Of a stretch of 32,976 bases of DNA, positions 11,105 to 26,861 are shown in pieces. The stretch spans positions 1 through 32,976 of the forward strand of contig CALCTU010000059.1 in NCBI GenBank assembly GCA_937907045.1, written 5' to 3'. Each line of letters begins with the position of its first letter. Position 1 is the first letter of the stretch. The stretch is from an uncultured Alphaproteobacteria bacterium (GTDB taxonomy: Bacteria > Pseudomonadota > Alphaproteobacteria > Rickettsiales > UBA6187). The notes under the pieces are model-generated. The model was not told the DNA's origin and searched no databases. It saw only the letters and a program-made list of their open reading frames with translations. A program made the position numbers and the translations under genes.

Positions 11105-11506
11105 CTACTGATTTAGCCCGTAATCTTGTGCAACTTCATCAATAGCAAGAAGTAAGTCTTCGGTAGTGAAGGGTTTTACGACGTACTTATCGACTCCCTG
11201 GTCTAACGCTTCTTGAATACGTTCTGGTACGGCGTCACCACTTTGTATAATGACAGGTACATCCTTTAAAATGGGATGTTTTTTCATTTCATTATTGATT
11301 TCCATGCCGGTCATGGTGACCATCATTTTGTCAAGAAGAACAATGTCCACATCATCTGGGTGCGCTTGTAAGTGCTCCCAGGTTACGCGTCCTTCTTCAA
11401 ATATAGTTGCAGTGTGGCCGCCATCTTTAAGATTTTTGACCATAATCTCAACATTGATAACATCATCGTCAGCTCCGACAATGCGCAGTCCCTTTACATG
11501 CTCCAT
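11105..11506 (-). CDS. Single-domain response regulator receiver (CheY/DivK-like)
   Basis: ADDD acidic pocket, LLDKMM phospho-acceptor Asp, IIQSG, VVKPF; no output domain. Start placed at ATG 11506 (GGGGAGAG RBS upstream) rather than TTG 11563. Confidence 0.9.
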   Translation of the reverse strand: MEHVKGLRIVGADDDVINVEIMVKNLKDGGHTATIFEEGRVTWEHLQAHPDDVDIVLLDKMMVTMTGMEINNEMKKHPILKDVPVIIQSGDAVPERIQEALDQGVDKYVVKPFTTEDLLLAIDEVAQDYGLNQ

Positions 11507-11534
11507 ATTGTCTCTCCCCTCGCATGTTGTTAAT

Positions 11535-11563
11535 ATTATAACCAATTGCGCAAAGAAAGGCAA
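11535..11563 (-). promoter_or_regulatory. Putative sigma70 promoter of the receiver gene
   Basis: Minus strand TTGCCT (11563-11558), 17 bp spacer, TATAAT (11540-11535). Confidence 0.55.
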
Positions 11564-11693: not shown

Positions 11694-13235
11694 CTATAGT
11701 TCCGCACCTACAGATGTGACTTCACCTTCAGGATTATTATCGGGGATAGTGAAGATAAAAATAGCACCGCCGCCAGGGTTATCCTCTACCCAAATTTTGC
11801 CACCGTGAGAACGGACAATGCCTGCGCTTATACTAAGTCCTAATCCTGTGCCGCCAGCTTGTGTTTTTGTACGGGTGCTTTGCACAAATTTCTTGAAAAT
11901 TGCTTCATGTTCACCTTCAGGAATACCGACTCCTTGATCAGAGACCATAAATGTAATATTGCCAGTACCGTCTTTGTCTTTACCTTTTTTGATTTTCAAT
12001 GAAATGGTTTGGCCTTCAGAACTAAATTTAGCTGCGTTACCAAGTAGGTTCACTAGAACTTGTACAATTTTGTCGCGATCACATACTAAATGAAGTTTCT
12101 GTTTTGGTGCTTTCATGCTGAAGGTTAGGTTCTTATCTGACATTGCGGTAGGTTGTTCCATTGAGATGATATCAGTAATGGATGCCAGCGGGTATCGTTG
12201 CATGTTAAAGACTTCAGAGCCATCTTCCATCTTAGCAATATTTAATACACCGTCTACGAGTGTTGTTAGGCGCTGTGTTGTAACGTTGATGCGCTCGAAA
12301 TATCGTTTTAGGTCTTCGCGGTCTGCGGTTTCATATTCATTAATACCAAATATTGAGAAGCTGTTCATTCCGTGTAACGGTGTACGAAATTCGTGTGACA
12401 TGTTACGAAGAAATTCTGATTTTGCTTCATTTGCGGCTTCTGCTTTAATTTTTTCCTCTTCGAGGTCGGCTGTTCGTTGAGCAACTTTTTTTTCTAAGCT
12501 TTCATGGCTTTTCTTGAGCTGTTGGTCACGACGATGAATAACTTCCATCATTTTATTGAAACCTTTTGCGAGTTTACCAAGCTCAGCTGTTCCTAGTTCT
12601 TGGGTTCTTACGGTGTAGTCACCACTTTGCACGTGCTCTGTGATATCTACGAGGCTTGCAATTGGAGTGGAAATAATGCGCTGAATCATGTAGGTCAGAA
12701 GGTAGGAAATAGCAAGTACGGCAAATACGATGCCAAGAAGCTTATAAGAAAATTCTTCAATATGCTGATCAACACGGCGAAGGTCGGATAAAATAAAGAT
12801 ATGCCCACGTGTGGAATTGTTGATTTTAATAGGCTGATAGCTGTTAATTAAGTCCGAACGTTGTTGAAGTGTTGCGTATTTGTCACACGTGTCAGAAAAT
12901 TCTTCCTGCTTATACTGAGCAAAAATCGCATTATCATCGGTAAATATGCATGCTAGTAATATGTATTTAATTGCCTTAAGGTCGTTCAAGTTCGACTCTG
13001 CTTGCTCTGGTAAATCATAGTCAATTGCAGGTATTACACGGTTCCCGATGATACGAGAGAGCATGCTTAATTCGTCTTTGATGGAATTTTTAGCATTTTG
13101 TGTATCGTATTTTATAAATGCTAAAGATAAAGTTAGGGTAGTAACAATGCATAGAAACATCCCCATAAACGTTAGCTGTGCCTTGATGGGTATATTATAG
13201 ATGAAGCTGGCGTGGCTGCTTTTATCTTTTGACAT
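11694..13235 (-). CDS. Membrane sensor histidine kinase (TM - periplasmic YfiN/CHASE8-like sensor - TM - HAMP - HisKA - HATPase)
   Basis: Two TMs flanking a ~120 aa periplasmic region; HAMP (PIASL...ELGKLAKGFNKM); H-box NMSHEFRTPL; N-box NLLGNAAKFS; DQGVGI; GGTGLGL. The sensor family assignment is inferred from architecture and the yfiR neighbour. Confidence 0.93.
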   Translation of the reverse strand: MSKDKSSHASFIYNIPIKAQLTFMGMFLCIVTTLTLSLAFIKYDTQNAKNSIKDELSMLSRIIGNRVIPAIDYDLPEQAESNLNDLKAIKYILLACIFTDDNAIFAQYKQEEFSDTCDKYATLQQRSDLINSYQPIKINNSTRGHIFILSDLRRVDQHIEEFSYKLLGIVFAVLAISYLLTYMIQRIISTPIASLVDITEHVQSGDYTVRTQELGTAELGKLAKGFNKMMEVIHRRDQQLKKSHESLEKKVAQRTADLEEEKIKAEAANEAKSEFLRNMSHEFRTPLHGMNSFSIFGINEYETADREDLKRYFERINVTTQRLTTLVDGVLNIAKMEDGSEVFNMQRYPLASITDIISMEQPTAMSDKNLTFSMKAPKQKLHLVCDRDKIVQVLVNLLGNAAKFSSEGQTISLKIKKGKDKDGTGNITFMVSDQGVGIPEGEHEAIFKKFVQSTRTKTQAGGTGLGLSISAGIVRSHGGKIWVEDNPGGGAIFIFTIPDNNPEGEVTSVGAEL

Positions 13236-13351
13236 TTAGTCCTAATTTACCTAATTGTTGATACCTGTAGTTGTTTATATAACATAGTAAATCATTTGAG
13301 AAAACTCTTGTCTTGAATGTTTTATGAATGCCATACAAATGGGGGGAACCA

Positions 13352-15319
13352 ATGAAAGGTAAAAAAACCAACAGGTTACTTATGTGTGTTTCATGCGTTG
13401 CAATGCTTGCATGTAGTTCGGTGAATGCTCAAGAGTTAGATGAAGAAACGCAAAAGTTGTTGTCGATGTCATTGGAAGATATTGTGAATATGCAAGTGAC
13501 CTCGGTGTCAAAGCGTTCAGAAAAATACCGTGAAGCTGCGGCTGCCATTTATGTTATTAACAAAGAAGATATTAGGCGTTCTGGTGCTACACAAATACCA
13601 GAATTACTACGTATGGTTCCAGGAATGCAGGTAGCTAAAGTTGGTACAAGCAGATGGGCTGTGTCAGCAAGGGGTTTTAATAGCCAATTTGTAAATAAGC
13701 TACTTGTACTCATTGACGGGCGTTCAGTTTACACACCAATTTTCTCTGGAGTTTATTGGGATGCTCAGGATGTATTGCTTGAAGACGTTGAGCGTATTGA
13801 GGTTATTCGCGGTCCTGGAGCAACGTTGTGGGGTGCAAATGCGGTCAATGGTGTGATTAACATTATTACCAAGAATGCTGAGGATGCCCAAGGATCAATG
13901 GTAACTGCAGGGGTAGGAAAGCAAGAAAAAGCTTTTGTAGGTGCCAGAACAGGTTTTCAAATAGATGAAGAAGTTTATGCTAAGACATATGGAAAGTTTT
14001 TTGTAAGAGGAGGGGGGCGTAATCTTTCTGGAGTTGAACAGAATGATGATTGGAGAAGAGGACAAGGTGGTTTTAGAGCAGATTGGAAGAAAAGCAAAAG
14101 TAAGTATACTTTACAAGGAGATGTGTATAGTGGCACGGCGGATGTTTCGTTGGTAACGCCAACACTTACTGCTCCATATTCTCAGTCTATTGAGATGGAT
14201 GAAGAGTCCTTTGGAGGTAATGTCTTATTTAAGTGGGATCAGACACTTGATAATGATTCGGTGACGTCATTTCAGGCATATTATGACGTTGCTCAACGAA
14301 ATGGTATTTCGGCTGGAGGTAATCAAGATATTCATACCCTGGATTTAGATTTTCAGCATGCACTTACGCCCTATCATGGTAACGAGATAACCTGGGGTAT
14401 TGGGTATCGAAATATTCACGGGATGTTTGATAATACCGAATTGGCAGCATTTACACCAGATGATCGTTATACGCATTTATATAGTATGTTTCTTCAAGAT
14501 AAAATTACTCTCATACCGGATGAGTTGTTTTTTACCATTGGTTCGAAATTAGAACATAATTCTCATACTGGTTTTGAAGTGCAACCAAGTGCACGAGCAA
14601 GCTATCTTATAGATGAAAAGCAAACATTATGGGCAGGGGTATCGCGTGCGGTGAGAACACCTAATTTGTTCCAGGATGATGGTGAGCTTGCAGCGGTTGG
14701 TACGCCTGTTGGTTTTGTGAAGCAAGTTGGACGCAGAGGATCTGATTCTGAAGAGCTGATTGCTTATGAGGCTGGCTACCGTATTCAGCCAAGAAGTGAT
14801 GTCATGTTTGATATTGCGGTATTTTATAATGATTATACTAAGCTAGCAAATAATGTGACATTATTGACTACTCCTGTGCAAGTGACGGTTGGTAATTCTG
14901 GAAGTGCTCAAGTGTACGGTTCTGAGGTTGCTGTGAATTGGGAAGTGACCGATTACTGGGAGTTGGCTGGTTCGTATAGTTATATCAATATTAAACCAGA
15001 CAAGACCTTTGAAACTATTGTTACAACTGATGTGCGTACTCCAAAACAGCAATTGAATGTTAGGTCTTACCTGGATCTTCCTTATGACTTAGAGTTAACA
15101 AACCTTGTCTATTATGTTGATGAAATAGTAAATGGAACGGTTGATAGCTATATTCGGTTTGACACTAATTTAACGTGGGAAGCTTCTGATGGGGTTGAGT
15201 TAAGTTTGATTGGTCAAAACTTGTTCGATGACTATAATGATGAATTTGTAGCAAATTTTGGAGAGATTGCCTACGAAAATGGCCGAACCATTTTTGGTAA
15301 AGTGAGAATTGATTTTTAA
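13352..15319 (+). CDS. TonB-dependent outer-membrane receptor
   Basis: Signal peptide ending VNA; plug motifs (IPELLRMVPG, LLVLIDGR, IEVIRGPGATLWGANAVNGVINIITK); beta-barrel; C-terminal Phe. Start likely ATG 13352 after GGGGGG (alternative 13328). Confidence 0.95.
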   Translation: MKGKKTNRLLMCVSCVAMLACSSVNAQELDEETQKLLSMSLEDIVNMQVTSVSKRSEKYREAAAAIYVINKEDIRRSGATQIPELLRMVPGMQVAKVGTSRWAVSARGFNSQFVNKLLVLIDGRSVYTPIFSGVYWDAQDVLLEDVERIEVIRGPGATLWGANAVNGVINIITKNAEDAQGSMVTAGVGKQEKAFVGARTGFQIDEEVYAKTYGKFFVRGGGRNLSGVEQNDDWRRGQGGFRADWKKSKSKYTLQGDVYSGTADVSLVTPTLTAPYSQSIEMDEESFGGNVLFKWDQTLDNDSVTSFQAYYDVAQRNGISAGGNQDIHTLDLDFQHALTPYHGNEITWGIGYRNIHGMFDNTELAAFTPDDRYTHLYSMFLQDKITLIPDELFFTIGSKLEHNSHTGFEVQPSARASYLIDEKQTLWAGVSRAVRTPNLFQDDGELAAVGTPVGFVKQVGRRGSDSEELIAYEAGYRIQPRSDVMFDIAVFYNDYTKLANNVTLLTTPVQVTVGNSGSAQVYGSEVAVNWEVTDYWELAGSYSYINIKPDKTFETIVTTDVRTPKQQLNVRSYLDLPYDLELTNLVYYVDEIVNGTVDSYIRFDTNLTWEASDGVELSLIGQNLFDDYNDEFVANFGEIAYENGRTIFGKVRIDF

Positions 15320-15390: not shown

Positions 15391-15900
15391 ATGCGTGTAA
15401 AGATGCTCCTATTTGGTTGGGTGTTTTTGGTTGTTTTACTTCAATCTTGGTTTTCTGTTGTCTTGGCAAAGGAAGCATTTAAAGATTATAAGTTAACAGC
15501 CGTGTACATCTTTAAGTTATTAGACCATGTGGAGGTACGTGATCATAGTGGTAAGGCCACAGTGTGTGTGTTTGGAGATGAACGTGTCTATGCAACATTA
15601 TCCAAGATTGTTGGAAAGAAGAAGATAACGGTATCTCAAGATGAGAATGTCTCTGGCGGGTGTCAAATTGTTTATATTAGCGTGTTCCATGAAGATTATG
15701 ATAGGTTGCTTGCAAAATACAGTGATATGAATGTAGCTACGATTGGAGATGCAAAGGGCTTTGCTAAGAAACACGGAATTATTGAGTTTAGCTGGCAAGC
15801 AGACGGTAAGGTGAAGTTTTTTATTAATATTAACCGGGCCAAGCGCAAAAATATTAGAATTAATTCAGACTTGCTTGCTATTTCTACAGTAATTAAATAA
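15391..15900 (+). CDS. YfiR-family (DUF4154) periplasmic protein
   Basis: Signal peptide; DYKLTAVYIFKL, VCVFG, CQIVYI, ATIGD...FAKKHGIIEF, KVKFFIN...IRINSDLL match the YfiR/DUF4154 pattern including the Cys pair. Confidence 0.85.
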   Translation: MRVKMLLFGWVFLVVLLQSWFSVVLAKEAFKDYKLTAVYIFKLLDHVEVRDHSGKATVCVFGDERVYATLSKIVGKKKITVSQDENVSGGCQIVYISVFHEDYDRLLAKYSDMNVATIGDAKGFAKKHGIIEFSWQADGKVKFFININRAKRKNIRINSDLLAISTVIK

Positions 15901-15932
15901 TGTTTTTTTATTTATTATAAGTTGAGGGTATT

Positions 15933-17720
15933 ATGGGTAAAGATATATGCATTATAGGTGCGGGTGCTTCTGGCCTGACAACCATTAAACAGTTGTTAGA
16001 TGAAGGGCACAATCCAATTTGCTTTGATAAAGCCGCTGATTTAGGTGGGTTATTTAACAGTAAAGAGGCTTTTGATGGTAAAAGAGGGAGTGTTTATAAA
16101 AATACAGTTCTGACCATCAGTAATTATCAAATGGCATTTTCAGATTTTTCACCAAAGGAACATAGACGTGTTCATTGGCATCATTATCAATATCTCCAGT
16201 ACTTAAGAGATTATGCACTAGAATATAGCCTGGATCGGTTTATTAAATTTTCTACACAAGTATTATCGGTGGCAGAAAAAGGTGATCGCTGGGTTGTGAC
16301 GGTAAAGTGTAATAACTCTGGTGATGTATTGGATTATGAATGTGATGGAGTTGCTATTTGCACGGGTACACATCAGGTGCCCAGTATACCACAATTTGAA
16401 AAAAGTGATGAATTTAAGGGCGAGATTGTCCATAGTTCTCAATATATGGAAGGGGATGCCTTTAGAGATAAAAAGGTGGTTGTGATTGGTATTGGCGAGA
16501 GTTCGGCCGATATTGTAAGGGAGATATCGGATGTCTCCAAAGAGTGTCATTTGCTGATCCGGAATTATCCTGTGCTTGTACCAAGAAATCAACAGCATGA
16601 GGCTGCTGATGCTAATACATCTAGAGCATTATCTTCATTTTCGTACCCTTCATCAACACTACTCAAGGTTTATCTTTTTGCTTGTGCTACAGTAGCAAAG
16701 GTGACTAACAGTGTATTGAAGCTTTTGGGATTGAACAAAAAACCAGCCCTTGATTCGTTCAATCAGAGTACTGATATGAGCTTCTTGGATCACAGTGTTC
16801 CTCATGAGGTGGAAGCTGTTAAGCTGATTAAGTCATGGAGTATCCTAGGGGGAGCAACGCCTGAAAGAAAATTTGCTACAAAAAATGTTACGTTTGTGAA
16901 GAATATTGTTTCAGGAAAAATTGATGTTCATAAAGATGAGATAGCTGAGTTTTATGACCATGGTATTATTACCAAGTCAGGTCAGAAAATCCCGTGTGAT
17001 ACTGTGATGTTGTGTACTGGTTATAAAGAAAGCTTTGGCTTCTTAAAAGATCATCAGGTAGAAGACAATAATGTAAGGAACTTGTACTTGAATGCATTTC
17101 ATCCAAAAATGAAGAATGTAGCGTTTATTGGTTGGAATAGGCCATCTTTAGGTGCAATACCTGCATGTTCAGAAATGATAGCACGGTATTACGCCTTGAT
17201 TCTCAGTGGTAAACGACAGTTACCTCACAATATTGAATTATTGATCAAACAACATAAGAAAGAAAAGGATGAGCGTTTTAAATTTAGTCCAAATATTTTG
17301 ACAGTTGTTGATTATCATGAATTTATGACCACGCTTAGCAAACTTATTGGGTGTCAGATAGAGTGGTCACGGTACGTGTTAAGGCCTGCAATGCTCTATA
17401 AGTTAGTATTTGGTGGGCATATGTCAGCGCAATATAGGATCACTGGGCCACATGCGATGACGGAACAATCCGAGAAAGTTATTTCAAGGTTGCCTGTTAG
17501 TCCGGTGATTCAAAATCTTTCTATGAAATTAGCCTTAGGACAGCTAATTGGTGCTCGGGTACAAAACAACGTTTCCCATAAGCAATTAATCAATAAATTG
17601 TTCTTACCTGGCATTGAAGTTAGTGACGACGATATTGAACGTTACGCTTTTAAGCCAAACGCAAATGATGACGTTAACACTGCAACTTCAGAAATTGAAG
17701 AAGAGAAGCTTGCTGTTTAA
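15933..17720 (+). CDS. Flavin-containing monooxygenase (class B, FMO-like)
   Basis: IIGAGASG FAD motif, FMO fingerprint FKGEIVHSSQY (FxGxxxHxxxY), IGIGESS NADPH motif, LCTGY. Confidence 0.92.
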   Translation: MGKDICIIGAGASGLTTIKQLLDEGHNPICFDKAADLGGLFNSKEAFDGKRGSVYKNTVLTISNYQMAFSDFSPKEHRRVHWHHYQYLQYLRDYALEYSLDRFIKFSTQVLSVAEKGDRWVVTVKCNNSGDVLDYECDGVAICTGTHQVPSIPQFEKSDEFKGEIVHSSQYMEGDAFRDKKVVVIGIGESSADIVREISDVSKECHLLIRNYPVLVPRNQQHEAADANTSRALSSFSYPSSTLLKVYLFACATVAKVTNSVLKLLGLNKKPALDSFNQSTDMSFLDHSVPHEVEAVKLIKSWSILGGATPERKFATKNVTFVKNIVSGKIDVHKDEIAEFYDHGIITKSGQKIPCDTVMLCTGYKESFGFLKDHQVEDNNVRNLYLNAFHPKMKNVAFIGWNRPSLGAIPACSEMIARYYALILSGKRQLPHNIELLIKQHKKEKDERFKFSPNILTVVDYHEFMTTLSKLIGCQIEWSRYVLRPAMLYKLVFGGHMSAQYRITGPHAMTEQSEKVISRLPVSPVIQNLSMKLALGQLIGARVQNNVSHKQLINKLFLPGIEVSDDDIERYAFKPNANDDVNTATSEIEEEKLAV

Positions 17721-20197
17721 TTGCAAGCTTCTTCGAGCTCCTTGGCGGTAGTGACAGCTGTGTTGCTATTGTCAAGGAGCGACGTTTGAATATAGTGCGC
17801 CATTTGTTTTGCGCCATTGCCTGAAAACATACTGATATGGTTCCCATCAATAGTAATCAGTTCTGTGTTGCCATGAAAATATGGTTGCCATTTTGTAACG
17901 TCTATATCCAGGGCGTAGTCGTTTGTTTTTTCATTAGCTAAGAAATATACTACATTGTCATGATATGCAGTGGTTTCATAGCAATAGAGGCTTTGTTTGT
18001 GTATACGCCAGTTATCAAAGAATTGCTCCAAATGTTGATGTGATGTCTTACTCAAATCTGTGATTTGTTTGGACATGTCAGGAGATAATTTTTTAATATA
18101 TTCAATGATTTGTTCATTTGAATCGGGGATATTATCGTGCGTTGGTTGCGCTAAACCCGGTGGTGGGCTGTCAGCCATGGCAAGAAGTGCTACTTCTTCG
18201 TTATGTTGTAGCAATAATTTAGAAATTTCGAATGCTATATTACCGCCAATAGATGCGCCAAATAATCGGTATGGTCCCTCTGGTTGGATGGCTTTAATAC
18301 GATCACGTTCTTTTATGGCGATGTCTTGGATGGTGGTGTTGTCAGTGAGGTGATCTGATTCAAGCCCAATAACATTGATGGTTTCAGGCATATGGCGGGC
18401 AAATTCTTTAAAAATTGCTACTGATCCACCTGCAGGATATAGGCAAAATAATGTAATGGCAGATTCTGAGATGGTGTTAAGATGAATATAGTTCTTATGA
18501 GTTGCTGGGTCAGAGGCTGTTTGGTTTTGTTGAAGATTGGTGATGTGTTGACTTAGTGCTTTAAGTGTTGGATAGGTAGTAAAATCTTGCAATGTAACAC
18601 TTATTTTTAAAGATGTTTCAATTTCGAGTATGAAATCTAATGTCATAAAAGAATCGACATTTAGCTCATCAAAGGTAAGCTCAGTATCGTCTATTGTGTC
18701 ACCTGTAAGGTTTTCCAAAGTCTGTGTAAGTGTTTCTAAAATAGTGTGCTGACTGGTGCCGGTGGACGTTGTTTTAGCAGGTGATGTGATTGTATCAATC
18801 CAGAAGCGACGACGATTGAATATGTTTATTGGTGGCGAAATAGCCGAGGTTGCTTGTTCAAGCGGGGATTCTTCAATAATAGCGTGGACATTGCACCCTC
18901 CCATACCAAATGAACTAATACTGGCGCGTCTTGGATGAAGCTTATTGCGCTGCCAGTCATGTAAGGAAGTATTCACCGAAATTGGAATGGAAGAAAAAGG
19001 TATATTTTCATTACCTGTTTCAAAATTGATCGAGGGAGGAATTTTTTTATGATGGAGACTGAGTACCGTCTTAATAAATCCTGCTATTCCGGCTGCAGCA
19101 TCAAGGTGGCCAATATTGGATTTTACAGAGCCAATTTTACATGGGTTTGAGCTGTCTCTATGTTTGTGGACAGTGCTGATGGCTTCCATTTCGATAGGGT
19201 CGCCAAGTAAGGTTCCGGTACCATGTGCTTCTATATATTCAATGGTTGATGGGTCTATTTCGGTGACAGCAAGGGCATGTTTAATTACTCTAGTTTGCCC
19301 CAGTACACTTGGAGCGTTATAAGACATTTTATTGGCGCCATCGTTATTTGTAGCGGTTCCTTTGATGACGGCATAAATAGTATCATGGTCATCGATCGCA
19401 TCCTCTAATCTTTTTAATATGACAACCCCCAGTCCGTTACCAGGGACTGTTCCTGATGCGTTCTTGTCGAATGGCCGGCAGTGTCCGTCAGCAGATGCGA
19501 TGCCTTCTTTTTTGTACATATAGCCAGATTTAAGAGGAGTGGTAATCGATACGCCGCCTGCAATGCTAATGTTGCAGTCATAATTGAGTAATCCTTGGCA
19601 GGCGTTATGTACAGCTAACAAAGATGATGAGCATGCAGATTGAATGACTTGCGAAGGGCCGGTTAAATTGAGTTTGTGACTAATACGTGAGGCTAGAAAA
19701 TCAACACCATTGGCAGTAACAAGTTGGTAGAAGTGGTTAGAGTCCAGAAGGTAGGGATGCTGCTTGATGAGTTCAAGAATATATGTATTGAAGCTAGAGC
19801 TAACGTATAAACCAACAACATTGGAGTCGTTATGTGTATCGACCTTGCACTGTTTAAGCGCTAAAAGTGTTTCTTCTAAAAGACAACGATGTTGTGGGTC
19901 AATGAGTGATGCTTCAAGTGTAGAATAATTAAAGTATGATGCATCAAACATATCAGCATCATGCATGATGGCTTTTGCTCGTACATAATTGGGGTTTAGG
20001 ATATCTTCTTCTGCAATACCGTTGGTGATCAGTTCATCGTCAGAAAAACGGGTGATTGATTCTTTTGCATGAATTAGATTTTCCCAAAAACTGTTAACAG
20101 AGTTTGCACCTGGAAAACGTCCTGACATGCCAATAACGGCAATGTCGTTATCATTATGTTCTGTCATAAGCTTGTCATATCTCCCTTTAAAATACAC
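17717..20197 (-). CDS. AT-less polyketide synthase module KS-ACP-TE
   Basis: KS: IAVIGMSGRFPGA, DPQHR, QSACSSSL, EAHGTGT, KSNIGHL (intact C-H-H triad). ACP: NVDSFM. TE: YPAGG, FGASIGG, GNH. No GHSxG AT domain between KS and ACP. Start is either GTG 20197 (overlapping the NRPS stop) or ATG 20167. Confidence 0.92.
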   Translation of the reverse strand: MYFKGRYDKLMTEHNDNDIAVIGMSGRFPGANSVNSFWENLIHAKESITRFSDDELITNGIAEEDILNPNYVRAKAIMHDADMFDASYFNYSTLEASLIDPQHRCLLEETLLALKQCKVDTHNDSNVVGLYVSSSFNTYILELIKQHPYLLDSNHFYQLVTANGVDFLASRISHKLNLTGPSQVIQSACSSSLLAVHNACQGLLNYDCNISIAGGVSITTPLKSGYMYKKEGIASADGHCRPFDKNASGTVPGNGLGVVILKRLEDAIDDHDTIYAVIKGTATNNDGANKMSYNAPSVLGQTRVIKHALAVTEIDPSTIEYIEAHGTGTLLGDPIEMEAISTVHKHRDSSNPCKIGSVKSNIGHLDAAAGIAGFIKTVLSLHHKKIPPSINFETGNENIPFSSIPISVNTSLHDWQRNKLHPRRASISSFGMGGCNVHAIIEESPLEQATSAISPPINIFNRRRFWIDTITSPAKTTSTGTSQHTILETLTQTLENLTGDTIDDTELTFDELNVDSFMTLDFILEIETSLKISVTLQDFTTYPTLKALSQHITNLQQNQTASDPATHKNYIHLNTISESAITLFCLYPAGGSVAIFKEFARHMPETINVIGLESDHLTDNTTIQDIAIKERDRIKAIQPEGPYRLFGASIGGNIAFEISKLLLQHNEEVALLAMADSPPPGLAQPTHDNIPDSNEQIIEYIKKLSPDMSKQITDLSKTSHQHLEQFFDNWRIHKQSLYCYETTAYHDNVVYFLANEKTNDYALDIDVTKWQPYFHGNTELITIDGNHISMFSGNGAKQMAHYIQTSLLDNSNTAVTTAKELEEACN

Positions 20198-23100
20198 TAA
20201 TGGCTAAGAATTTTTTTGCGATTAAGATGGCGTTTCCGTTTTTTGACCATATCAGAAGACAGAAACATGTTGTGTTGACGCGAGTAGTTTTGTGCTGTGT
20301 ATTGGTCAATAAAATGGGCGCAGTCGGTAATGGTTGGTAAGGAGAAAAATTGACTCAGTGATATTTTTATGTTGAACAATGCTTCAATATCACACGCAAC
20401 CGCAATGAGTGAAATGGAGTCGCCACCAATCTCAAAAAATTTATCATGAATACCAATTTTTTCACTAGGAATTCCAAGTTGATGAGACCAAATCGTCAAG
20501 ATAGATTCTTGGGTTTTATTGAGAGGACGCTCTTCGGTCTTAGATGTTTGTAACTCTATTGGCCTATCGGCAAGCTGATGCCGGTTTATTTTGCCATTTC
20601 GAAGAAGAGGCATGTGGTCGAGTTTTACAAACAAAGCAGGGACCATATAATCGGGTACCCGTGACGTAAGAAAGCGTTTGATGTCTTGGTTTGTAGGCTG
20701 ACTGTTAGGGTTGCTTGTATAGAATGCAATCAGCATAGGAGTATGCGTGTAAGGATGGTCTCTTTTGATGATGGCAACTTTACCCACATCCGGGTGAGCC
20801 AGTATATTATGCTCAATATCATCAATTTCAATACGGTAGCCATTGAGTTTTATTTGATTATCTCTTCTACCAACAAATTGAATATTTCCTTCTTTGGTAT
20901 AATAACCTAAATCGCCTGTTCTATATAATCGAGATTGGGAAGGGTCGTTGGCGATGTTATTAGGGACAAATTTTTTCTTGTTAGCGCTTGGATTGTTAAT
21001 ATAACCGTTTGCAAGGCAGTCGCCTCCTATATACAACTCACCAACAGCTCCAAGTGGTTGAAGTTGTTGGTAATCATTTAAGATATAAATAGAGGTATAT
21101 TCAGCAGGTTTGCCAATTGGAATGGTGTGAGCATTGTTTTGATTCGGTAAGCAAGGATAGTAAGTTGCGGTAATGGTGGTTTCGGTTGGGCCGTATAAAT
21201 TGTAGAGTGTTGTTTGTGGATACTGAAACTCTTGATAAAATTTATTTACTAACTCAGGGTGTAATGCTCCACCTCCTGAGAAAACATAATTAAGGTCGTT
21301 GCACTGGCTAAAGGATGGGTTATTTAGTAACATTGATAGGAGGGATGGAACGCAAGAGATGCAATTAATTTTTTGAGAGTGGATCAATGCTACAAGATAG
21401 TCTGGACGGCCAGATTGCTCAGGATCAGATATCGCGATACAAGCTCCATTACTTAAAGGCCATAACATTTCGTGAAGTGATGGATCAAATGTAATATTAA
21501 TGTGATGAAGTACCCTGTCTCCAACTTGTAATGGAAACGTTTTTTGCATCCATTGCATTTTTAAAGCAATGCTTCGATGTGAAATTTCAACTCCCTTTGG
21601 TTTTCCGGTTGTTCCTGAAGTGTAAAGAATATAGGCAGGAAGTTCGAGGTGATTGGAAGGAGTAGGTGGTATTGTTTTTATGTTCGTATGGGAATAGTTT
21701 GTAGGATCTAATGTGACCACAGGAGGACAGTTTTGCAGATTGCTTAATTGCGCTTGCTGTTGGGGTGTTGTGATGATGATATTGGTTTGGCTGTCTTGGA
21801 GTATATCGTTTAGTCGGCTTTGTGGTGTACCCGGATAAATAGGAATATAACATGCACCCAATGTAAAGATGGCAAGCATTGTTGCAATGAGATCTGGACT
21901 ACTGTGCATGTAAACCATGACGCGTGATCCTGGTTTAACGGAGTGTTCGGATAGCAATAGGCTAATTTGATCGCACATTTGCAGTAGTTCGGTATAACTA
22001 TACTGCTGTTGTGTATGGTTGATCAGTGCGGTTTGGCTTGAGTATTGCCGAGCGATTTTTCTAATTGTTGTAGAAATGGGCTCAAGTTCTGTGGTTGATG
22101 AGTGTGTGTGGTGGTTAAATTGATGGATAAGTTGTTCTGATTCTGGAGAAATAACTTTGAGTGTCGATAAATCAACCAATGGATCTTGCGATATTTGATC
22201 AATTAGGTAGCTAAAACTACTAGTTAGTTCTTGAATTTGCTCTAGCTCAAATAATTTAGTTTTATATTGCCATTCAAAAACAATCGTGTCTTGCATTGAG
22301 GTGTCATAAATTAAGGCAAGGTCATTAATGACTTCCTGGTAGTTAAACTCTAACGGTGTAATAATCATGTCATGAAGTGATGCTCCTGGAAAAAGAACAT
22401 TTCCCTCGCTTAGAGAGAGATTCATGTTGTTGTTAGAAATAGTTTGAGTTTTACGCATATGTTTGATGATTTGTGGTAAAGGAACATGTGCGTGTTTTTT
22501 AGCGTCTTTTCGTTGTTGGTGGCATTGTTGAATAATGTCCTGAAATGACATACCAGCTTCTAGTTTAACCCTAAGAGGGACGTTATTGACAAACAATCCT
22601 AGGCAGTGTTTTAAGTTTAAAGGACGCGTGTTAATGCTGTAATGCGATACAATATCGTTGTTATTAAAATAATTACTTACCAGAATATTAAATAAGGAAG
22701 TAATGGTAACAAAAAGAGAAGTTTTATGCTGCTTTGCAAGGGATTTAAGTTTTTTATTTTGGGCATTGGTTAGTTTAAAACGTAAGCAATTACCTTGAAT
22801 ATTTTGGTTGGAATCTAATGTTTTATTAAATGAAAGTTCTAGGTTGTGGTCTTTTAGTATGTTTTCCCAATAGGCAAGTGATGAAGACAGCGTAGTATCG
22901 TTGTTTGATTGGGGGTGTTGATAAAAAGAAACATATTGTTGTAGTTGATCGCCTGGCTTAAGAGTCTCAAATTCCAAGGGGTCATTGTTATATATCATTG
23001 AGAGTGTTTTAAGGAAAAGTTGTGCTGACCCTCCATCAAATAAAATATGTGGAATGGAGGTGCCAAAAAAATAAGTGTCATGTGAAACTTTAATTAAACA

Positions 23101-23463
23101 AAATCTGGCTAAGGGTGCAGTGAACAAATCAAATGGTTGGCGTGCTAGGTTATGGACGATGTGAGTCGCTTGATCCTTTTTTTCTTCGTCATTGATTGTG
23201 TTATTGGTGGTTAGGTCAAAATAGTCTAATGTTGGTATGATATCGCTAGAAAGCTCGGCACAAATATCTCCATTATGAGAGATAAATTTGACTCTCAGAG
23301 AATCAAATAATGTTATGCATTGCATAATAGATTTTTTGAAATGCTCTACATCCATGTTACCATTTAATTGTAATTGGATAGATGTATTGTACGCATAACT
23401 TTGTGGATTGAGTTTCCACGCAAACCAAAATCCTTCTTGTAGCGGTACCATCGGGTAAAGCAT
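20197..23463 (-). CDS. Single-module NRPS C-A-T
   Basis: C domain (PLQEGFW, AYN, PHILFDG, YW, LGLFVNNVPLR); A domain (YTSGTTGKPKG, FDPS, NLYGPTE, GELYIGG, YRTGD, GRRDNQIKLNGYRIE, NGK); PCP FFEIGGDSI. Start likely ATG 23463 after GGGGG (alternative 23502). Confidence 0.94.
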   Translation of the reverse strand: MLYPMVPLQEGFWFAWKLNPQSYAYNTSIQLQLNGNMDVEHFKKSIMQCITLFDSLRVKFISHNGDICAELSSDIIPTLDYFDLTTNNTINDEEKKDQATHIVHNLARQPFDLFTAPLARFCLIKVSHDTYFFGTSIPHILFDGGSAQLFLKTLSMIYNNDPLEFETLKPGDQLQQYVSFYQHPQSNNDTTLSSSLAYWENILKDHNLELSFNKTLDSNQNIQGNCLRFKLTNAQNKKLKSLAKQHKTSLFVTITSLFNILVSNYFNNNDIVSHYSINTRPLNLKHCLGLFVNNVPLRVKLEAGMSFQDIIQQCHQQRKDAKKHAHVPLPQIIKHMRKTQTISNNNMNLSLSEGNVLFPGASLHDMIITPLEFNYQEVINDLALIYDTSMQDTIVFEWQYKTKLFELEQIQELTSSFSYLIDQISQDPLVDLSTLKVISPESEQLIHQFNHHTHSSTTELEPISTTIRKIARQYSSQTALINHTQQQYSYTELLQMCDQISLLLSEHSVKPGSRVMVYMHSSPDLIATMLAIFTLGACYIPIYPGTPQSRLNDILQDSQTNIIITTPQQQAQLSNLQNCPPVVTLDPTNYSHTNIKTIPPTPSNHLELPAYILYTSGTTGKPKGVEISHRSIALKMQWMQKTFPLQVGDRVLHHINITFDPSLHEMLWPLSNGACIAISDPEQSGRPDYLVALIHSQKINCISCVPSLLSMLLNNPSFSQCNDLNYVFSGGGALHPELVNKFYQEFQYPQTTLYNLYGPTETTITATYYPCLPNQNNAHTIPIGKPAEYTSIYILNDYQQLQPLGAVGELYIGGDCLANGYINNPSANKKKFVPNNIANDPSQSRLYRTGDLGYYTKEGNIQFVGRRDNQIKLNGYRIEIDDIEHNILAHPDVGKVAIIKRDHPYTHTPMLIAFYTSNPNSQPTNQDIKRFLTSRVPDYMVPALFVKLDHMPLLRNGKINRHQLADRPIELQTSKTEERPLNKTQESILTIWSHQLGIPSEKIGIHDKFFEIGGDSISLIAVACDIEALFNIKISLSQFFSLPTITDCAHFIDQYTAQNYSRQHNMFLSSDMVKKRKRHLNRKKILSH

Positions 23464-23716
23464 GGTGCCCCCGCTATTACAACTGAGCTGTTTGTCCAAC
23501 ATTGTCTATCCGTTAGTTTGAAAATATTCTCTCTTTGGTTGTATAAGTGCATGCGCGTAATCGCTTTATAGCGACCGGAGATACGTTCCCCCAAAGTCTA
23601 ATGTATAACTTAAATGCACCCATTACAACACATACAAAAATGACGGATATTATTCAACCTATTGTTTTAGAAAAATTCAAGTTATGATTTATTCTTGCGG
23701 TAATCCATGGGAGGAA

Positions 23717-24652
23717 TTATGCGCTACCGCTCAGTTCTTTGCGTACTTCTTTATCCAATTGTTTCATCACTGCATCAAATGCCATAAGAAAGCCTTCAAG
23801 TGTAACACGGTTAAATTTTTTGCTGATTGGATGGTCCAGATATGCAAGATATTGGTTGCGTTGTTCTTTGGTCAAGTGGCGATAGGAATAAGCCAGAGTG
23901 AGTTGGGCGGTGTGGTGAGCCTGGGCATAAATCTCAGGCCTATTTTGGTTTACTCGGGTTACAATTTGGATATGTTCTTGAGGGCTGTATAAAGATGCCA
24001 TTACGTTGAGTGTTGCATCGAGAATATTATCTTGAATGGCAATGGATTGTTGACTAATTCCGACAAGCTCATCAATGCGTTTGGCAAAATCCATTAATTC
24101 TTGGTTTGCCTGTATCATGGCTGCACTTGCAAGTGCTTGTTGATAGTTTTCTGGCTTTCCAAGCTCTGTATCGTTATAGCTGATAATTTTACCTAAGTCC
24201 GAATTATGCCATTCAATAATGTATGTGGCCTCTTTTGGAGTAATGTTTTGCTTATAGTATTTTCTGAGAATTTCAATCATGATGTTTGCATCAAGAGAGC
24301 GCATTAATGCTGCACGTAGCTGCGATGTTTTTTTAGCGTCTTCAGGTTTTTGTTTAGCACGCTGTGTTAACTGTTGGTCAATAGAAGTCCGAATCATAAC
24401 CGGAACTTGTGTTAATTGTTGTTCTAGTCGGGTGACCTGCATTAATGCATTCACTCCATCGTCAGTTAACTCTTTTGCCGATGATAGAGAAGGAATAACG
24501 ATTATTGCTGAGATGATAAGGAGTGTTTTGCAAATATAATCACTTCTATTTTTAATACTTGCTATCACAGGCGTAAAACAGCTGCTTTTACGTACCTGTG
24601 TTGATAGTATTTCATAGATGAATTGAGAAAATACTTTAGAGTGTTCAAGCAT
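23717..24652 (-). CDS. Exported alpha-helical protein, DUF2059-like
   Basis: Hydrophobic signal-like stretch ending SLSSA; two repeats resembling DUF2059 (YYKQNITPKEATYIIEWHNSDLGK; YSYRHLTKEQRNQYLAYLDHPISK). The true start may be downstream of 24652. Confidence 0.6.
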   Translation of the reverse strand: MLEHSKVFSQFIYEILSTQVRKSSCFTPVIASIKNRSDYICKTLLIISAIIVIPSLSSAKELTDDGVNALMQVTRLEQQLTQVPVMIRTSIDQQLTQRAKQKPEDAKKTSQLRAALMRSLDANIMIEILRKYYKQNITPKEATYIIEWHNSDLGKIISYNDTELGKPENYQQALASAAMIQANQELMDFAKRIDELVGISQQSIAIQDNILDATLNVMASLYSPQEHIQIVTRVNQNRPEIYAQAHHTAQLTLAYSYRHLTKEQRNQYLAYLDHPISKKFNRVTLEGFLMAFDAVMKQLDKEVRKELSGSA

Positions 24653-24687: not shown

Positions 24688-25533
24688 TTAACTACAATCC
24701 CAATTAAACAGAACATTTGAAAAATCTTTGTTTTTGAGATCTTCTTCGCTAATAAAAAATTGTGCAATGCCGCCATCGCCCCAATATATATCATTTTCAG
24801 GGTCAGAATCTATTTGGAGTAACATGATTGTTTTGTCTTGATAACCGCTTGAATTGTAGCTACGAGGGTCGTCTTGCCTAAATGTTGGATATCCGCCAAC
24901 CCTATGGCCATCTCCCGGATATTCTGCGATATAGGCTTCTATGCCTTCATCACTATTAAATCTTAGTATTTTCTCGCGGCGGAAATCCTCAAAAGTAACC
25001 GGCATTGAGCGTTTTTTGAAACTTAGCCTTAATCCATGTTGGTGATTGTCTCCAAGTGGGCCATTTTCAAATGGCTCAACAAAGTCAAAGTTGGTTACAA
25101 GATTGTTGTTATCGATCTGCGGGTAAAAAATGACTCTAAAGCCATCTTGCAGAGTTTGGTCGTCGGTATCAAGGCCATAAAGGTCATCGTTTGCAATCCA
25201 AAATTGCAATATACCCTTCTTGGGAAAGGGTTGAATGGATGGCATCTGAGCAAAGTTGATTTGCGCTAAAAAATGCAGATGTTCGCCTTCACTGTCTTTT
25301 GGGTATTCCTGTGAAGTTGGAAGGTAAGGTAGGCCACCAAACTTGCTGTCCCATAATTGGAGTGATTTATCGGCAGTTGGTGTAATTTCAACACTGGGTA
25401 ATTCGCTTTCTACAATTGCGCTGAATATTCCAGCTTTTTTTCTGAATTGTTTAAGTAAATCGGATTTATATATGAGGTAGTACCCACCTACCCAAACAAT
25501 TAAAAGTCCAATAAAAATAGCTAATGTGGTCAT
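24688..25533 (-). CDS. YwqG/DUF1963 family protein with N-terminal membrane anchor
   Basis: SKFGGLPYLP, FLAQIN, GILQFW, HRVGGYP, LLQIDSD, WGDGG, C-terminal WDC. Confidence 0.85.
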   Translation of the reverse strand: MTTLAIFIGLLIVWVGGYYLIYKSDLLKQFRKKAGIFSAIVESELPSVEITPTADKSLQLWDSKFGGLPYLPTSQEYPKDSEGEHLHFLAQINFAQMPSIQPFPKKGILQFWIANDDLYGLDTDDQTLQDGFRVIFYPQIDNNNLVTNFDFVEPFENGPLGDNHQHGLRLSFKKRSMPVTFEDFRREKILRFNSDEGIEAYIAEYPGDGHRVGGYPTFRQDDPRSYNSSGYQDKTIMLLQIDSDPENDIYWGDGGIAQFFISEEDLKNKDFSNVLFNWDCS

Positions 25534-25544
25534 GGTATTGTTTC

Positions 25545-26861
25545 TTATTGAGGCTTACGATATGCTTTGTATATTACAATCACAAACATAAGTCCACCAA
25601 TTAGCGCAAGCGGTGCGCCTCCAAAAAACAAGGCTTTTCCAATGATAGTGTCGACTTGAGCACTATTTCCTGCAGTTTTACGAAGTGCTCCATAGCCGCC
25701 CATTACGGCCAGGCCGGTAATGTGTAGTACGTGACCAATACCATACAGGTATAACTGAATCATTGCTGCACGTGGTTGGGTAAATGCTTTGTCCAAGAGA
25801 GTAGGGACAACTGTATAGCATAGTGTCATGAATGCCATGGTGATGCCACCTACGACGGAGGCGTGATAATGTGCTGGTACAGTTGTGTCCATACCTCCAA
25901 TATGAACACCAAGTAGACCGCCATAGCCAAAGAATAAAATTGACCATAAAAGACCGTGTTTAATATAAGGCAAAGGAGATTGATTGTTGGATGTAAGGAA
26001 GCTTCCCACAATGATTAAGCCGATTGTTACTGGGGCAATGCCACCAAGCCATCGCATATGTAGTGTAAATGGCCAAATAGTATCTTCTATTGAGGGGTAT
26101 AATTTGTAGATAAATGGACATATACCCGCAAATAAAAGATTACATAATATAATAATACTAAGGTATTTGTTTTTAACTAAAAGTGATAACCCAGTGTGGT
26201 CAGCAAGCTTTAGCCAGGTTGCAATGAGTAAGCTGGTAAATGTAAATTGAAGTGCATGGCCACCTCCCCAAAAGAGTTGCTCATAAAAATGTGCTAAATC
26301 ATCAGGTTGGTTAGGCAACATCGTGCCGGCGATCATGAAACATCCCATTGCTATCAAGATAATTACCGCAGCGCTGCAAAGGCTGAGATTAAGTGGTTGA
26401 GAAAGGGTAGGAAATCGAGGTGGGATAGCAAGAATTGCCTGGCCCAGAATACCACACGCAAATACACTAAGTCCTATGATAAAGACAATGTTTGTAAGCA
26501 TTGGAATATAGTTACTTTTGATGGCCTGAGTATCTGGGACCAATGCTCCAAGTGTCATGAGTACTGTTCCGCCTAAGCATAAGTAAAAGCATAATGTTGC
26601 TAATGCATAAACATGTACAAACCGGTTGGTGGCATGCATGACTGTCATCATGCCACCAATAGCGAGAATCCATACCAAGACTGACATATTAACATGTATA
26701 ACTAAGCTAACATCAAAAATATGCTGGGTATTAAAAAGTTGTTCAAAAAACGGACCGCGTAAAATGGCCGGTGGAAGTGAAAATAATCCAGCAATAGCAA
26801 GTGAGGCAATGCTCAAGAAAAACCACTTGCGGGCCAAGGGGATAGCGTTTGGGTTTTGCAT
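25545..26861 (-). CDS. Heme-copper oxidase subunit I-like membrane protein (atypical, no CuB His-His pair)
   Basis: About 12 TMs; helix-II-like His (VIHVN), helix-VI-like LFWGGGH, helix-X-like PAHYH, loop GALRK similar to GMPRR. Confidence 0.72.
   Translation of the reverse strand: MQNPNAIPLARKWFFLSIASLAIAGLFSLPPAILRGPFFEQLFNTQHIFDVSLVIHVNMSVLVWILAIGGMMTVMHATNRFVHVYALATLCFYLCLGGTVLMTLGALVPDTQAIKSNYIPMLTNIVFIIGLSVFACGILGQAILAIPPRFPTLSQPLNLSLCSAAVIILIAMGCFMIAGTMLPNQPDDLAHFYEQLFWGGGHALQFTFTSLLIATWLKLADHTGLSLLVKNKYLSIIILCNLLFAGICPFIYKLYPSIEDTIWPFTLHMRWLGGIAPVTIGLIIVGSFLTSNNQSPLPYIKHGLLWSILFFGYGGLLGVHIGGMDTTVPAHYHASVVGGITMAFMTLCYTVVPTLLDKAFTQPRAAMIQLYLYGIGHVLHITGLAVMGGYGALRKTAGNSAQVDTIIGKALFFGGAPLALIGGLMFVIVIYKAYRKPQ

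What the first reader, a model, noticed from the sequence alone, without database searches (positions are those of the whole stretch)
17717..23463. Minimal AT-less NRPS-PKS assembly line (C-A-T + KS-ACP-TE) in a Rickettsiales-like genome
Seen: two coupled genes (TAG/GTG overlap at 20197) with intact catalytic residues and no AT, KR, PPTase, transporter or regulator within the cluster. Known: an N-terminal C domain with no upstream module typically acylates the first amino acid. As I recall, C-A-T plus KS-ACP-TE without AT is the architecture of the reutericyclin/mutanocyclin N-acyl tetramic acid pathways of Firmicutes, which add PhlABC-like acetylases that are absent here. Inference: it makes an N-acyl amino acid extended by one malonate, released as a tetramic acid or beta-keto acid/ketone and possibly oxidised by the FMO, with malonyl supplied in trans (e.g. 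FabD). This would be a likely new metabolite from a lineage not known for such clusters.
Basis: partly seen in the sequence, partly recalled or inferred. Interest (0 to 1): 0.78.

Follow-up and report, generated by a model that had tools for sequence, protein, structure and literature searches.

The report
Minimal two-gene NRPS-PKS assembly line
A marine, Rickettsiales-like bacterium carries an intact two-gene enzyme line built like the one that makes reutericyclin-type tetramic acids in lactic acid bacteria; it probably makes a small fatty-acylated amino acid derivative and sits beside an outer-membrane sensor system.

Summary
Window 20197-23502(-) encodes a C-A-T NRPS (1101 aa). Window 17717-20197(-) encodes a KS-ACP-TE PKS (826 aa) with no AT and no KS-AT linker. 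All catalytic motifs are present. These are the only condensation domain and the only modular KS in the 2.36 Mb draft. The only AT is FabD-like and the only PPTase is AcpS-sized.

The architecture equals MucD/MucE of the mutanocyclin/reutericyclin pathway. Published work shows those two proteins plus a trans malonyl transferase make an N-acyl tetramate. PhlABC-type genes are not found here.

The pair is rare. Among about 800 sampled genomes of the same class it recurs once, in another family of the same order (G030, NRPS 29% identical). The adjacent FMO occurs in 0 of 40 relatives.

Best reading (about 0.5): an N-acyl amino acid plus one malonate, released as a 3-unsubstituted N-acyl tetramate or a beta-keto acid. 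This is a new variant of a known kind.

Not tested: product, amino acid, C-domain subtype, and sequence kinship to Muc/Rtc. The scan's earlier notes hold no similar finding.

The parts
20197..23502 (-). NRPS gene, C-A-T, 1101 aa (alternative start ATG 23463). C domain about 22126-23457, A domain about 20590-22059, T domain about 20308-20505.
17717..20197 (-). AT-less PKS gene, KS-ACP-TE, 826 aa (alternative start ATG 20167 gives 816 aa). KS about 19019-20149, ACP about 18542-18733, TE about 17783-18454. No KS-AT linker subdomain.
15933..17720 (+). FMO-like flavin monooxygenase, 595 aa, with motif FKGEIVHSSQY (FxGxxxHxxxY). Convergent with the PKS gene; the 3' ends overlap by 4 nt. Starts 32 nt after the YfiR-like gene on the same strand. 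Probable tailoring enzyme.
15391..15900 (+). YfiR/DUF4154-like periplasmic protein, 169 aa. Best NCBIfam hit is the TOL_0243 family (55.5 bits, cut-off 125).
13328..15319 (+). TonB-dependent receptor, 663 aa. Best NCBIfam hit is the TOL_0244 family (628 bits, cut-off 645).
11694..13235 (-). Sensor histidine kinase CHASE8-HAMP-HisKA-HATPase, 513 aa. The N-terminus matches 'HK, YfiR-like protein-associated' (126.9 bits, cut-off 194). Whether it belongs to the system is a possibility, not shown.
11105..11563 (-). Single-domain response regulator, 152 aa, downstream of the kinase. Whether it belongs to the system is a possibility, not shown.

Best explanation
The two genes form one operon that encodes a complete one-module NRPS and a one-module AT-less PKS.

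Proposed steps (all inferred):
1. The A domain loads an alpha-amino acid onto the T domain. The specificity code, read by motif anchoring, is D-P-H-S-F-G-L-I-T-K. The amino acid is not assignable.
2. The N-terminal C domain, which has no upstream module, acylates the amino group with a fatty acyl thioester from primary metabolism.
3. The housekeeping FabD-like transacylase puts malonyl on the PKS ACP.
4. The KS (Cys-His-His) condenses the N-acyl-aminoacyl chain with malonyl-ACP.
5. The TE releases the beta-keto product. By analogy with MucD/MucE this would be an N-acyl-5-substituted pyrrolidine-2,4-dione without a 3-acyl group. Otherwise it would be the free beta-keto acid, which decarboxylates to a ketone.
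6. In this genome the lineage-specific FMO next door probably oxidises the product or the ACP-bound beta-keto intermediate.
7. The carrier domains would have to be primed by the single AcpS-type PPTase.

Shown: the domains, the motifs, the absence of AT, Sfp-type PPTase and PhlABC-type genes, and the recurrence of the pair.
For: - Domain order and intact motifs.
- Gene coupling.
- Exactly one condensation domain in G000 and one in G030. No other NRPS or PKS in the own genome by tblastn.
- One Acyl_transf_1 gene, with a FabD-like GHSLG sequence.
- Experimental precedent for the same architecture: MucD (C-A-PCP) plus MucE (KS-ACP-TE) plus a trans MAT make M-307, and MucE refuses the non-acylated aminoacyl surrogate (PMC10161427, section 4 read).
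- The pair is kept intact at 29% (NRPS) and 45%/31% (KS / ACP-TE) identity in G030, which argues for selection.
- A-domain Asp235 and Lys517 equivalents are kept in both genomes, as expected for an alpha-amino acid.
- The composition of the FMO-PKS-NRPS stretch is ordinary for the genome: GC 38.8% against 40.2%, and 44% of 202 same-sized genome windows have a tetranucleotide distance at least as large.
- Independent Logan contigs bridge the YfiR/FMO junction, the FMO/PKS junction and the NRPS 5' end.
- FMO: 0 of 40 relatives have it, so it is accessory like the synthases. Among its best matches to solved structures is a PKS-associated protein (8odw, 158 bits). FMO-type enzymes that oxidise beta-ketoacyl thioesters are known (OocK; PMC6174933, abstract read).
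Against: - No Sfp-type PPTase. G000 (89% complete) and G030 (99% complete) each have one AcpS-sized PF01648 gene. Relatives with large NRPSs (G183, G278, G038) each have a second, Sfp-sized gene near their clusters.
- The C domain resembles elongation-type C domains more than the one starter C domain found among solved structures. Its first motif His is Pro.
- G030 lacks the FMO.
- Kinship to MucD/MucE could not be tested. The closest NRPS relatives found are only 25-33% identical.
- There is no acyl-activating gene, no exporter and no evidence of expression.
Confidence: 0.5

Rival explanations
1. The PKS acts first. The KS is primed with a fatty acyl group and extends it to a beta-ketoacyl-ACP. 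The C domain joins this to the aminoacyl-T. Dieckmann-type release then gives a 3-acyl tetramic acid, a known metal-chelating scaffold.
For: - The same six domains allow this order.
- The C domain looks like an elongation-type domain that takes a carrier-bound donor.
- A TonB-dependent receptor lies next door in both carriers.
- PMC10161427 (section 10 read) notes that Dieckmann closure yields an innate 3-acyl chain.
Against: - The gene order is NRPS then PKS, with the TE fused behind the ACP, not behind the T domain.
- The only experimentally studied C-A-T + KS-ACP-TE pair works NRPS-first (PMC10161427, section 4).
- The best structural matches of the KS include KS domains of NRPS/PKS hybrids.
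Confidence: 0.12
2. There is no lipoinitiation. The free aminoacyl chain is extended by malonate and released as an unacylated tetramic acid or a gamma-amino-beta-keto acid, and the C domain has another role or none.
For: - The PHxxxDG variant motif.
- No acyl-CoA ligase or acyl-ACP gene in the locus.
- The C domain is not close to the solved starter C domain.
Against: - The 440-residue C domain is kept full length, with the catalytic His and Asp, in both G000 and G030. The same holds in four C-A-T-C relatives.
- MucE did not accept unacylated Leu-SNAC (PMC10161427, section 4).
Confidence: 0.13
3. The line is silent or non-functional in this organism because nothing primes its carrier domains.
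For: - Only an AcpS-sized PPTase is found in G000 and G030. Relatives with large NRPSs carry an extra Sfp-sized gene.
- No MbtH gene.
Against: - Two long ORFs (3.3 and 2.5 kb) stay open with every catalytic motif in a 40% GC genome.
- The pair persists at 29-45% identity in G030.
- The two C-A-T-C carriers tested (G075, G019) also have only an AcpS-sized gene. The small NRPS systems of this order therefore consistently lack an Sfp-type enzyme.
Confidence: 0.1

Closest known systems
MucD/MucE (Streptococcus mutans muc cluster) and the reutericyclin rtc cluster
   Same: - Two adjacent genes, C-A-carrier then KS-ACP-TE.
- No AT, with malonyl loaded in trans.
- An N-terminal C domain with no upstream module.
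(PMC10161427, section 4 read.)
   Different: - No MucABC/PhlABC-type acetylase set (none among the neighbours).
- No MucF deacylase, TetR regulators or MFS exporter in the window.
- An FMO instead.
- The KS is joined to the ACP with almost no linker.
- The host is a marine alphaproteobacterium, whereas the 63 muc-like clusters surveyed were in Firmicutes (60) and Actinobacteria (3) (PMC10161427, section 9).
- Sequence kinship was not testable here.
Stand-alone AT-less KS-ACP-TE proteins from metagenomes and MAGs (P0005, P0009, P0003, P0004; G030 PKS)
   Same: - 41-56% identity.
- Same domain order.
- Shared TE signature HPAGG ... GNH(I/L)xMH.
- P0005 (827 aa) and P0009 (818 aa) also lack the post-KS linker.
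   Different: All are uncharacterised. Their gene neighbourhoods could not be retrieved, except for G030.
Trans-AT PKS modules and OocK-type FMO oxygenases
   Same: - An AT-less KS whose best solved matches include trans-AT and hybrid KS domains.
- An FMO-fold enzyme beside a line that produces a beta-ketoacyl-ACP (PMC6174933, abstract).
   Different: No dedicated trans-AT gene and only a single module. Kinship of the FMO to OocK was not tested; its best match is ancestral FMO5.
TOL_0244 / TOL_0243 / YfiR-associated kinase triad (NCBIfam NF053590-NF053592) and YfiBNR
   Same: TBDR, YfiR-like protein and CHASE8 kinase are the best hits to these three models. The same triad is found in 8 of 11 family genomes and a second time in the own genome.
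   Different: All three score below the curated cut-offs. No function is published for the triad: two searches found no paper on it. An association with an NRPS-PKS is not described.
C-A-T-C single-module NRPSs of the same order (G244, G075, G131, G019)
   Same: 31-33% identical over C-A-T, with the same PHxxxDG motif in the N-terminal C domain.
   Different: They end in a second C domain instead of handing over to a PKS. Their A-domain code differs: D(V/I)ASL(A/C)(V/L/I)IYK.

Membership tests
muc/rtc-type N-acyl tetramate pathway | Adjacent C-A-T NRPS and KS-ACP-TE PKS genes | tested here: met
   definition from PMC10161427, section 4
muc/rtc-type N-acyl tetramate pathway | No cis AT; malonyl supplied by a separate transacylase | tested here: met
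   No PF00698 hit in P0002. One FabD-like gene elsewhere in the genome. The actual loading is not testable here.
muc/rtc-type N-acyl tetramate pathway | MucABC/PhlABC-like C-3 acetylase genes (mucA-E were the search criterion of the published survey) | tested here: not met
   PF01796 was not found in G000 or G030. No thiolase or HMGS-like neighbour.
muc/rtc-type N-acyl tetramate pathway | Starter-type C domain | tested here: inconclusive
   The domain is N-terminal with no upstream module. Its best solved matches are elongation C domains (105-98 bits), against 50 bits for RzmA-Cs.
muc/rtc-type N-acyl tetramate pathway | Sequence orthology to MucD/MucE or RtcN/RtcK | not testable with these tools
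   No Muc or Rtc sequence could be obtained. No Firmicute protein appears among the 120 listed hits. The plasmid search gave 0 records covering >=80% of the query.
muc/rtc-type N-acyl tetramate pathway | Product is a pyrrolidine-2,4-dione | not testable with these tools
   Needs chemistry.
trans-AT PKS system | Dedicated trans-acting AT gene with the cluster | tested here: not met
   Only one Acyl_transf_1 gene in the genome, FabD-like, on another contig.
TOL_0244 TBDR / TOL_0243 YfiR-like / associated kinase triad | Scores above the NCBIfam curated cut-offs | tested here: not met
   628 against 645, 55.5 against 125, and 126.9 against 194 bits. Each is nevertheless the top or specific hit. 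G030: 458.6 and 45.9 bits.

The most novel reading that the evidence does not exclude
The small NRPS-PKS product is the cognate ligand of the adjacent TonB-dependent receptor / YfiR-like / CHASE8-kinase module. The cell would make a lipophilic tetramate (a possible metal chelator) and recapture or sense it at the outer membrane. The receptor would then titrate the YfiR-like protein away from the kinase, as YfiB does in YfiBNR. That would make this a self-produced outer-membrane signalling or metallophore loop, and it would give a first ligand for a widespread orphan sensor triad.

Basis:
- Both known carriers (G000, and G030 from another family) have the pair tail-to-tail with the YfiR-like gene of such a module.
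- Each genome has only 2-3 such receptors.
- In G000 the accessory FMO is placed as the last gene of the receptor operon.

The receptor tree does not resolve whether the adjacency was inherited or arose twice.
Probability: 0.15. Interest if true: 0.8.

Novelty: new variant of a known kind. Interest (0 to 1): 0.5.

Why it matters
If it is active, this is one of the smallest complete NRPS-PKS lines known: 5.8 kb and six domains. It lies outside the Gram-positive, human-associated range so far reported for this architecture, in an uncultured marine lineage with a reduced genome.

It lacks the acetylase set and apparently any Sfp-type PPTase. It therefore bears on two practical questions. First, what the bare C-A-T + KS-ACP-TE core makes on its own in nature. 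Second, whether an AcpS-type enzyme can prime such lines.

The repeated adjacency to an orphan TonB-receptor/YfiR-like/kinase module offers a testable candidate ligand for that sensor family.

The cluster is small enough for direct synthesis and heterologous expression.

Tried and rejected
- Genome-contig scan with the full PKS alignment. The patterns fell in generic KS motifs. All 80 kept loci matched mainly the KS at 44-52%. Re-inspection found AT-less KS-x-ACP-TE genes after NRPS genes only in L076 and L077, with a TE only 22-25% identical. These are not close relatives.
- Metagenome-contig scan with P0005. 56 pattern matches, none a relative.
- Metagenome-contig scan with the ACP-TE alignment A2. 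80 loci at 22-33% identity, all generic terminal TEs. None has KS and ACP-TE within about 1 kb of each other.
- Plasmid tblastn. 999 records matched, 0 covering >=80% of the query.
- HMMER scan of 1.84 billion representatives with P0001. The top 150 are all multi-module giants ranked by summed score, at 25-30% identity. This says nothing about single-module relatives.
- Word-index search with P0001. Best hits are only 25-31% identical.
- Class-wide search with A2 (400 other genomes). The best other matches are <=116 bits. The 846-925 aa ORFs inspected (6 loci) are A-T-TE proteins, not KS-ACP-TE.
- ESM Atlas look-ups. Only generic EF-Ts and PKS clusters.
- Sequencing runs. No RNA holder listed. 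Two marine metagenome DNA runs from one study.
- Receptor tree. A star topology; the G030 receptor sits on a long branch; uninformative.
- Mobile-element signs. No tRNA. No flanking repeats beyond short chance-like pairs.
- Promoter and terminator scans were at or near shuffle expectation.
- Rejected: mis-binning or chimera. The contig carries gltB, rpmE, asd, folE, rpsB and tsf around the cluster, its composition is typical, and independent contigs bridge the junctions.
- Rejected: fragment of a larger line.
- Supplementary files of PMC10161427 (C-domain tree, list of muc-like strains) were not seen and may bear on the C-domain subtype and on the reported distribution.
Full report
WHAT IS THERE

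The window is a whole contig (C59) of a 2.36 Mb draft genome in 239 contigs, 89% complete. On the minus strand lie two ORFs:
- 20197..23502, 1101 aa
- 17717..20197, 826 aa

Pfam gives these domains:
- First protein: Condensation (16-459), AMP-binding (482-834 and 896-971), PP-binding (1000-1065).
- Second protein: the two KS halves (17-393), a 55-residue stub of the KS C-terminal extension, PP-binding (489-552), Thioesterase (582-805).
- No Acyl_transf_1, KR, DH or ER domain.

NCBIfam gives no equivalog above its cut-off.

The catalytic motifs can be read directly:
- C domain: PHILFDG.
- A domain: TSGTTGKPKG, YGPTE, YRTGD, GRRDNQIKLNGYRIE and NGK.
- Carrier serines: GGDS and VDSF.
- KS: Cys-His-His.
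- TE: GASIGG, DSPPP and GNH.

The NRPS stop TAG and a GTG share one base. An in-frame ATG lies 30 nt further on, with AAGGGAG 13 nt upstream of it. This ATG is an equally good PKS start and matches an 816-aa database entry of the same 90% cluster. Either way the two genes are coupled.

IS IT COMPLETE?

- tblastn of both proteins against the whole draft finds no other NRPS or modular PKS. It finds only a FabF-like gene, two acyl-CoA ligases and a small ligase fragment at a contig end.
- PF00668 finds exactly one condensation domain in G000 and one in G030.
- PF00698 finds one gene, a 314-aa FabD-like protein with GHSLG.
- PF01648 finds one gene whose sequence is AcpS-like: it starts IGTDIV and is about 119 aa.
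- No MbtH gene and no DUF35/PhlB-type gene.

ORGANISM

- Ribosomal protein S2 has its best named relatives in MAGs labelled Rickettsiales (67% identity) and Rickettsiaceae (66%), followed by other Alphaproteobacteria. Unnamed hits reach 74-79%.
- The proteins occur in Tara and other marine data, and the only holders found are marine metagenome runs.
- 'Rickettsiales-like' therefore rests on submitters' labels. It is consistent with an order of at least 39 families with genomes of 0.9-3.3 Mb.
- The FMO-PKS-NRPS stretch has ordinary composition: GC 38.8% against 40.2% for the genome, and 44% of 202 same-sized genome windows have a tetranucleotide distance at least as large.
- There are no tRNAs or flanking repeats.
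- Housekeeping genes flank the stretch on both sides.
- Independent Logan contigs bridge the YfiR/FMO junction, the FMO/PKS junction and the NRPS 5' end.

DISTRIBUTION

- None of the 11 same-family genomes matched P0001 at E<=1e-30, and none matched the ACP-TE half of P0002.
- In 400 scored genomes of the order, 40 match P0001 at E<=1e-30. Only G030 (another family, 99% complete) has a stand-alone C-A-T of about 1,085 aa.
- In G030 the C-A-T gene is followed, with a 4-nt overlap, by a 908-aa KS-linker-ACP-TE gene. Identities to G000 are 29% over the full NRPS, and 45% (KS) and 31% (ACP-TE) for the PKS.
- I inspected the contexts of four higher-scoring hits (G244, G075, G131, G019). They are C-A-T-C proteins of about 1,480 aa with no PKS adjacent.
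- A profile of the ACP-TE part found no further member in 400 other genomes of the class.
- In the protein database, 26 of the 120 listed hits to P0002 are 818-1,050 aa and carry KS, carrier and TE hits but no AT hit (my count).
- The closest of these (P0003, P0004, P0005, P0009) and the G030 PKS share a TE signature, HPAGG ... GNH(I/L)xMH, with P0002.
- P0005 (827 aa, 42% identity) and P0009 (818 aa, 41%) also lack the post-KS linker.
- The gene neighbourhoods of these database proteins could not be recovered.

NEIGHBOURS

On the plus strand, converging on the PKS gene, lie three genes:
- a TonB-dependent receptor, 13328-15319
- a YfiR/DUF4154-like protein, 15391-15900
- an FMO, 15933-17720, starting 32 nt after the YfiR-like gene

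Upstream and divergent lie a CHASE8-HAMP histidine kinase and a response regulator.

The sensor triad:
- NCBIfam holds three linked models: the TOL_0244 receptor, the TOL_0243 YfiR-like protein and a 'kinase near YfiR-like'. They are the best or specific hits to these three proteins, though all score under the curated cut-offs.
- The triad is common without any NRPS. Receptor homologues at 40-46% identity (blastp) occur in 8 of 11 family genomes and a second time in the own genome. In the six neighbourhoods inspected (five family genomes and the own contig C30), a YfiR-like gene or a small ORF in its position follows the receptor gene, and a kinase gene lies nearby.
- In G030 the NRPS-PKS pair is again tail-to-tail with the YfiR-like gene of a TOL_0244-type receptor (32% and 24% identity to G000's proteins). 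G030 has three such receptors.
- With 2-3 such modules among about 2,000 genes, adjacency in both carriers is unlikely to arise by chance twice. It could, however, be one inherited arrangement. The receptor tree is unresolved.

The FMO:
- It is found in 0 of 40 relatives and is absent from the G030 locus.
- It carries the FxGxxxHxxxY motif.
- Its best solved matches are ancestral FMO5 (203 bits), ancestral FMO2 (180 bits) and a 'polyketide synthase modules-related protein', 8odw (158 bits).

MECHANISM

The architecture is that of MucD/MucE. The following comes from PMC10161427, sections 4, 9 and 10:
- MucD is C-A-PCP with a starter C domain. MucE is KS-ACP-TE.
- Holo-MucE, together with the trans acyltransferase PksC, malonyl-CoA and N-decenoyl-D-Leu-SNAC, gives the tetramate M-307 by lactam closure.
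- Unacylated Leu-SNAC is not accepted.
- MucABC then acetylates C-3.
- The authors' survey for mucA-E found 63 strains: 60 Firmicutes and 3 Actinobacteria.

By analogy, the present pair should give an N-acyl, 3-unsubstituted tetramate, or, if the TE hydrolyses, a beta-keto acid.

The A-domain code:
- I placed the code positions by motif anchoring, from my recollection of the Stachelhaus scheme, and transferred them by alignment.
- The code is DPHSFGLITK in G000 and DPYSIGMIMK in G030.
- Asp235 and Lys517 are kept, which indicates an alpha-amino acid.
- I cannot assign the side chain.

The C domain:
- Its first motif His is Pro in G000, in G030 and in the four C-A-T-C relatives.
- Among solved structures it scores best with elongation C domains: SrfA-C 105 bits, TycB 102, TycC 98.
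- It scores only 50 bits with the starter domain RzmA-Cs. The identities of these structures come from PMC11142918 passages and the listing of PMC7804268.
- Lipoinitiation is therefore inferred from position, not from sequence class.

The FMO could hydroxylate the product. Alternatively it could, like OocK, insert oxygen into the beta-ketoacyl thioester (PMC6174933, abstract). This is inference.

THE PPTASE PUZZLE

- G000 and G030 have only an AcpS-sized PF01648 gene. So do the two C-A-T-C carriers tested, G075 and G019.
- Three relatives with multi-module NRPSs (G183, G278, G038) each have a second, 236-272 aa gene within about 15 kb of their NRPS genes.
- The search therefore does detect Sfp-type enzymes in this order, and the small systems consistently lack one.
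- Either AcpS primes them or they are unprimed. Conservation of intact genes favours the former.

VERDICT

- This is a new variant of a known kind: a bare MucD/E-type core with an even more compact PKS, an FMO, no acetylase set and no Sfp-type PPTase.
- It sits in a marine alphaproteobacterial lineage and is repeatedly placed beside an orphan outer-membrane sensor module.
- No RNA evidence was available.
- The scan's earlier notes hold nothing similar.

Noticed in passing
L129:4061-8527, L130:8670-13151, L131:8655-13082, L132:8793-13241 (G244, G075, G131, G019): Four genomes of the same order carry a single-module C-A-T-C NRPS of about 1,480 aa. It is 31-33% identical to P0001 and has the same PHxxxDG variant in the N-terminal C domain. 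Its A-domain code is conserved: D(V/I)ASL(A/C)(V/L/I)IYK. Small conserved ORFs follow it. This looks like a separate, uncharacterised lipoamino-acid-type system.
   Followed up: partly
G183:C1:295906-296127, G038:C1:1603455-1603691, G278:C1:653706-654017: Sfp-sized PPTase genes lie within about 15 kb of large NRPS genes in three relatives with small genomes. One of those NRPS ORFs is 13,274 aa, in a 2.0 Mb genome (G183). The genomes with single-module NRPSs have only an AcpS-sized gene.
   Followed up: partly
G000 contig C30:7676-12431: The own genome has a second kinase / TonB receptor / YfiR-like triad. The receptor is 42% and the kinase 47% identical to the window's copies. There is no NRPS-PKS beside it.
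   Followed up: partly
window 15910-16123 and 17225/23767: Logan contigs of run X1 show loose ends at 15910, 15916 and 16123, exactly at the YfiR-like/FMO boundary. One low-depth contig joins 23767 to 17225 with 11 extra letters. This may be strain variation or an assembly artefact around the FMO-PKS-NRPS block.
   Followed up: no
window 23717-24652 (-): A 311-aa protein with an N-terminal hydrophobic segment and no Pfam family lies 214 nt upstream of the NRPS gene. It has no counterpart in the G030 locus. Function unknown.
   Followed up: partly
window 5920-7833 (-): A 637-aa protein made almost entirely of pentapeptide repeats (14 Pfam stretches, E 8.5e-109), between rpmE and asd.
   Followed up: no
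window 24688-26861 (-): A DUF1963 protein and a 438-aa membrane protein with only a weak COX1 match (E 5.8e-10) sit next to the heme A synthase gene ctaA.
   Followed up: no
L076:152-9494 and L077:9956-12973: AT-less KS-x-ACP-TE genes of about 1,000 aa also occur in an Aminicenantes MAG (directly after a 2,083-aa NRPS gene) and in a Candidatus Anammoxibacter MAG. Their TE domains are only 22-25% identical to the window's. The NRPS-to-AT-less-PKS hand-over therefore recurs in distant phyla.
   Followed up: partly
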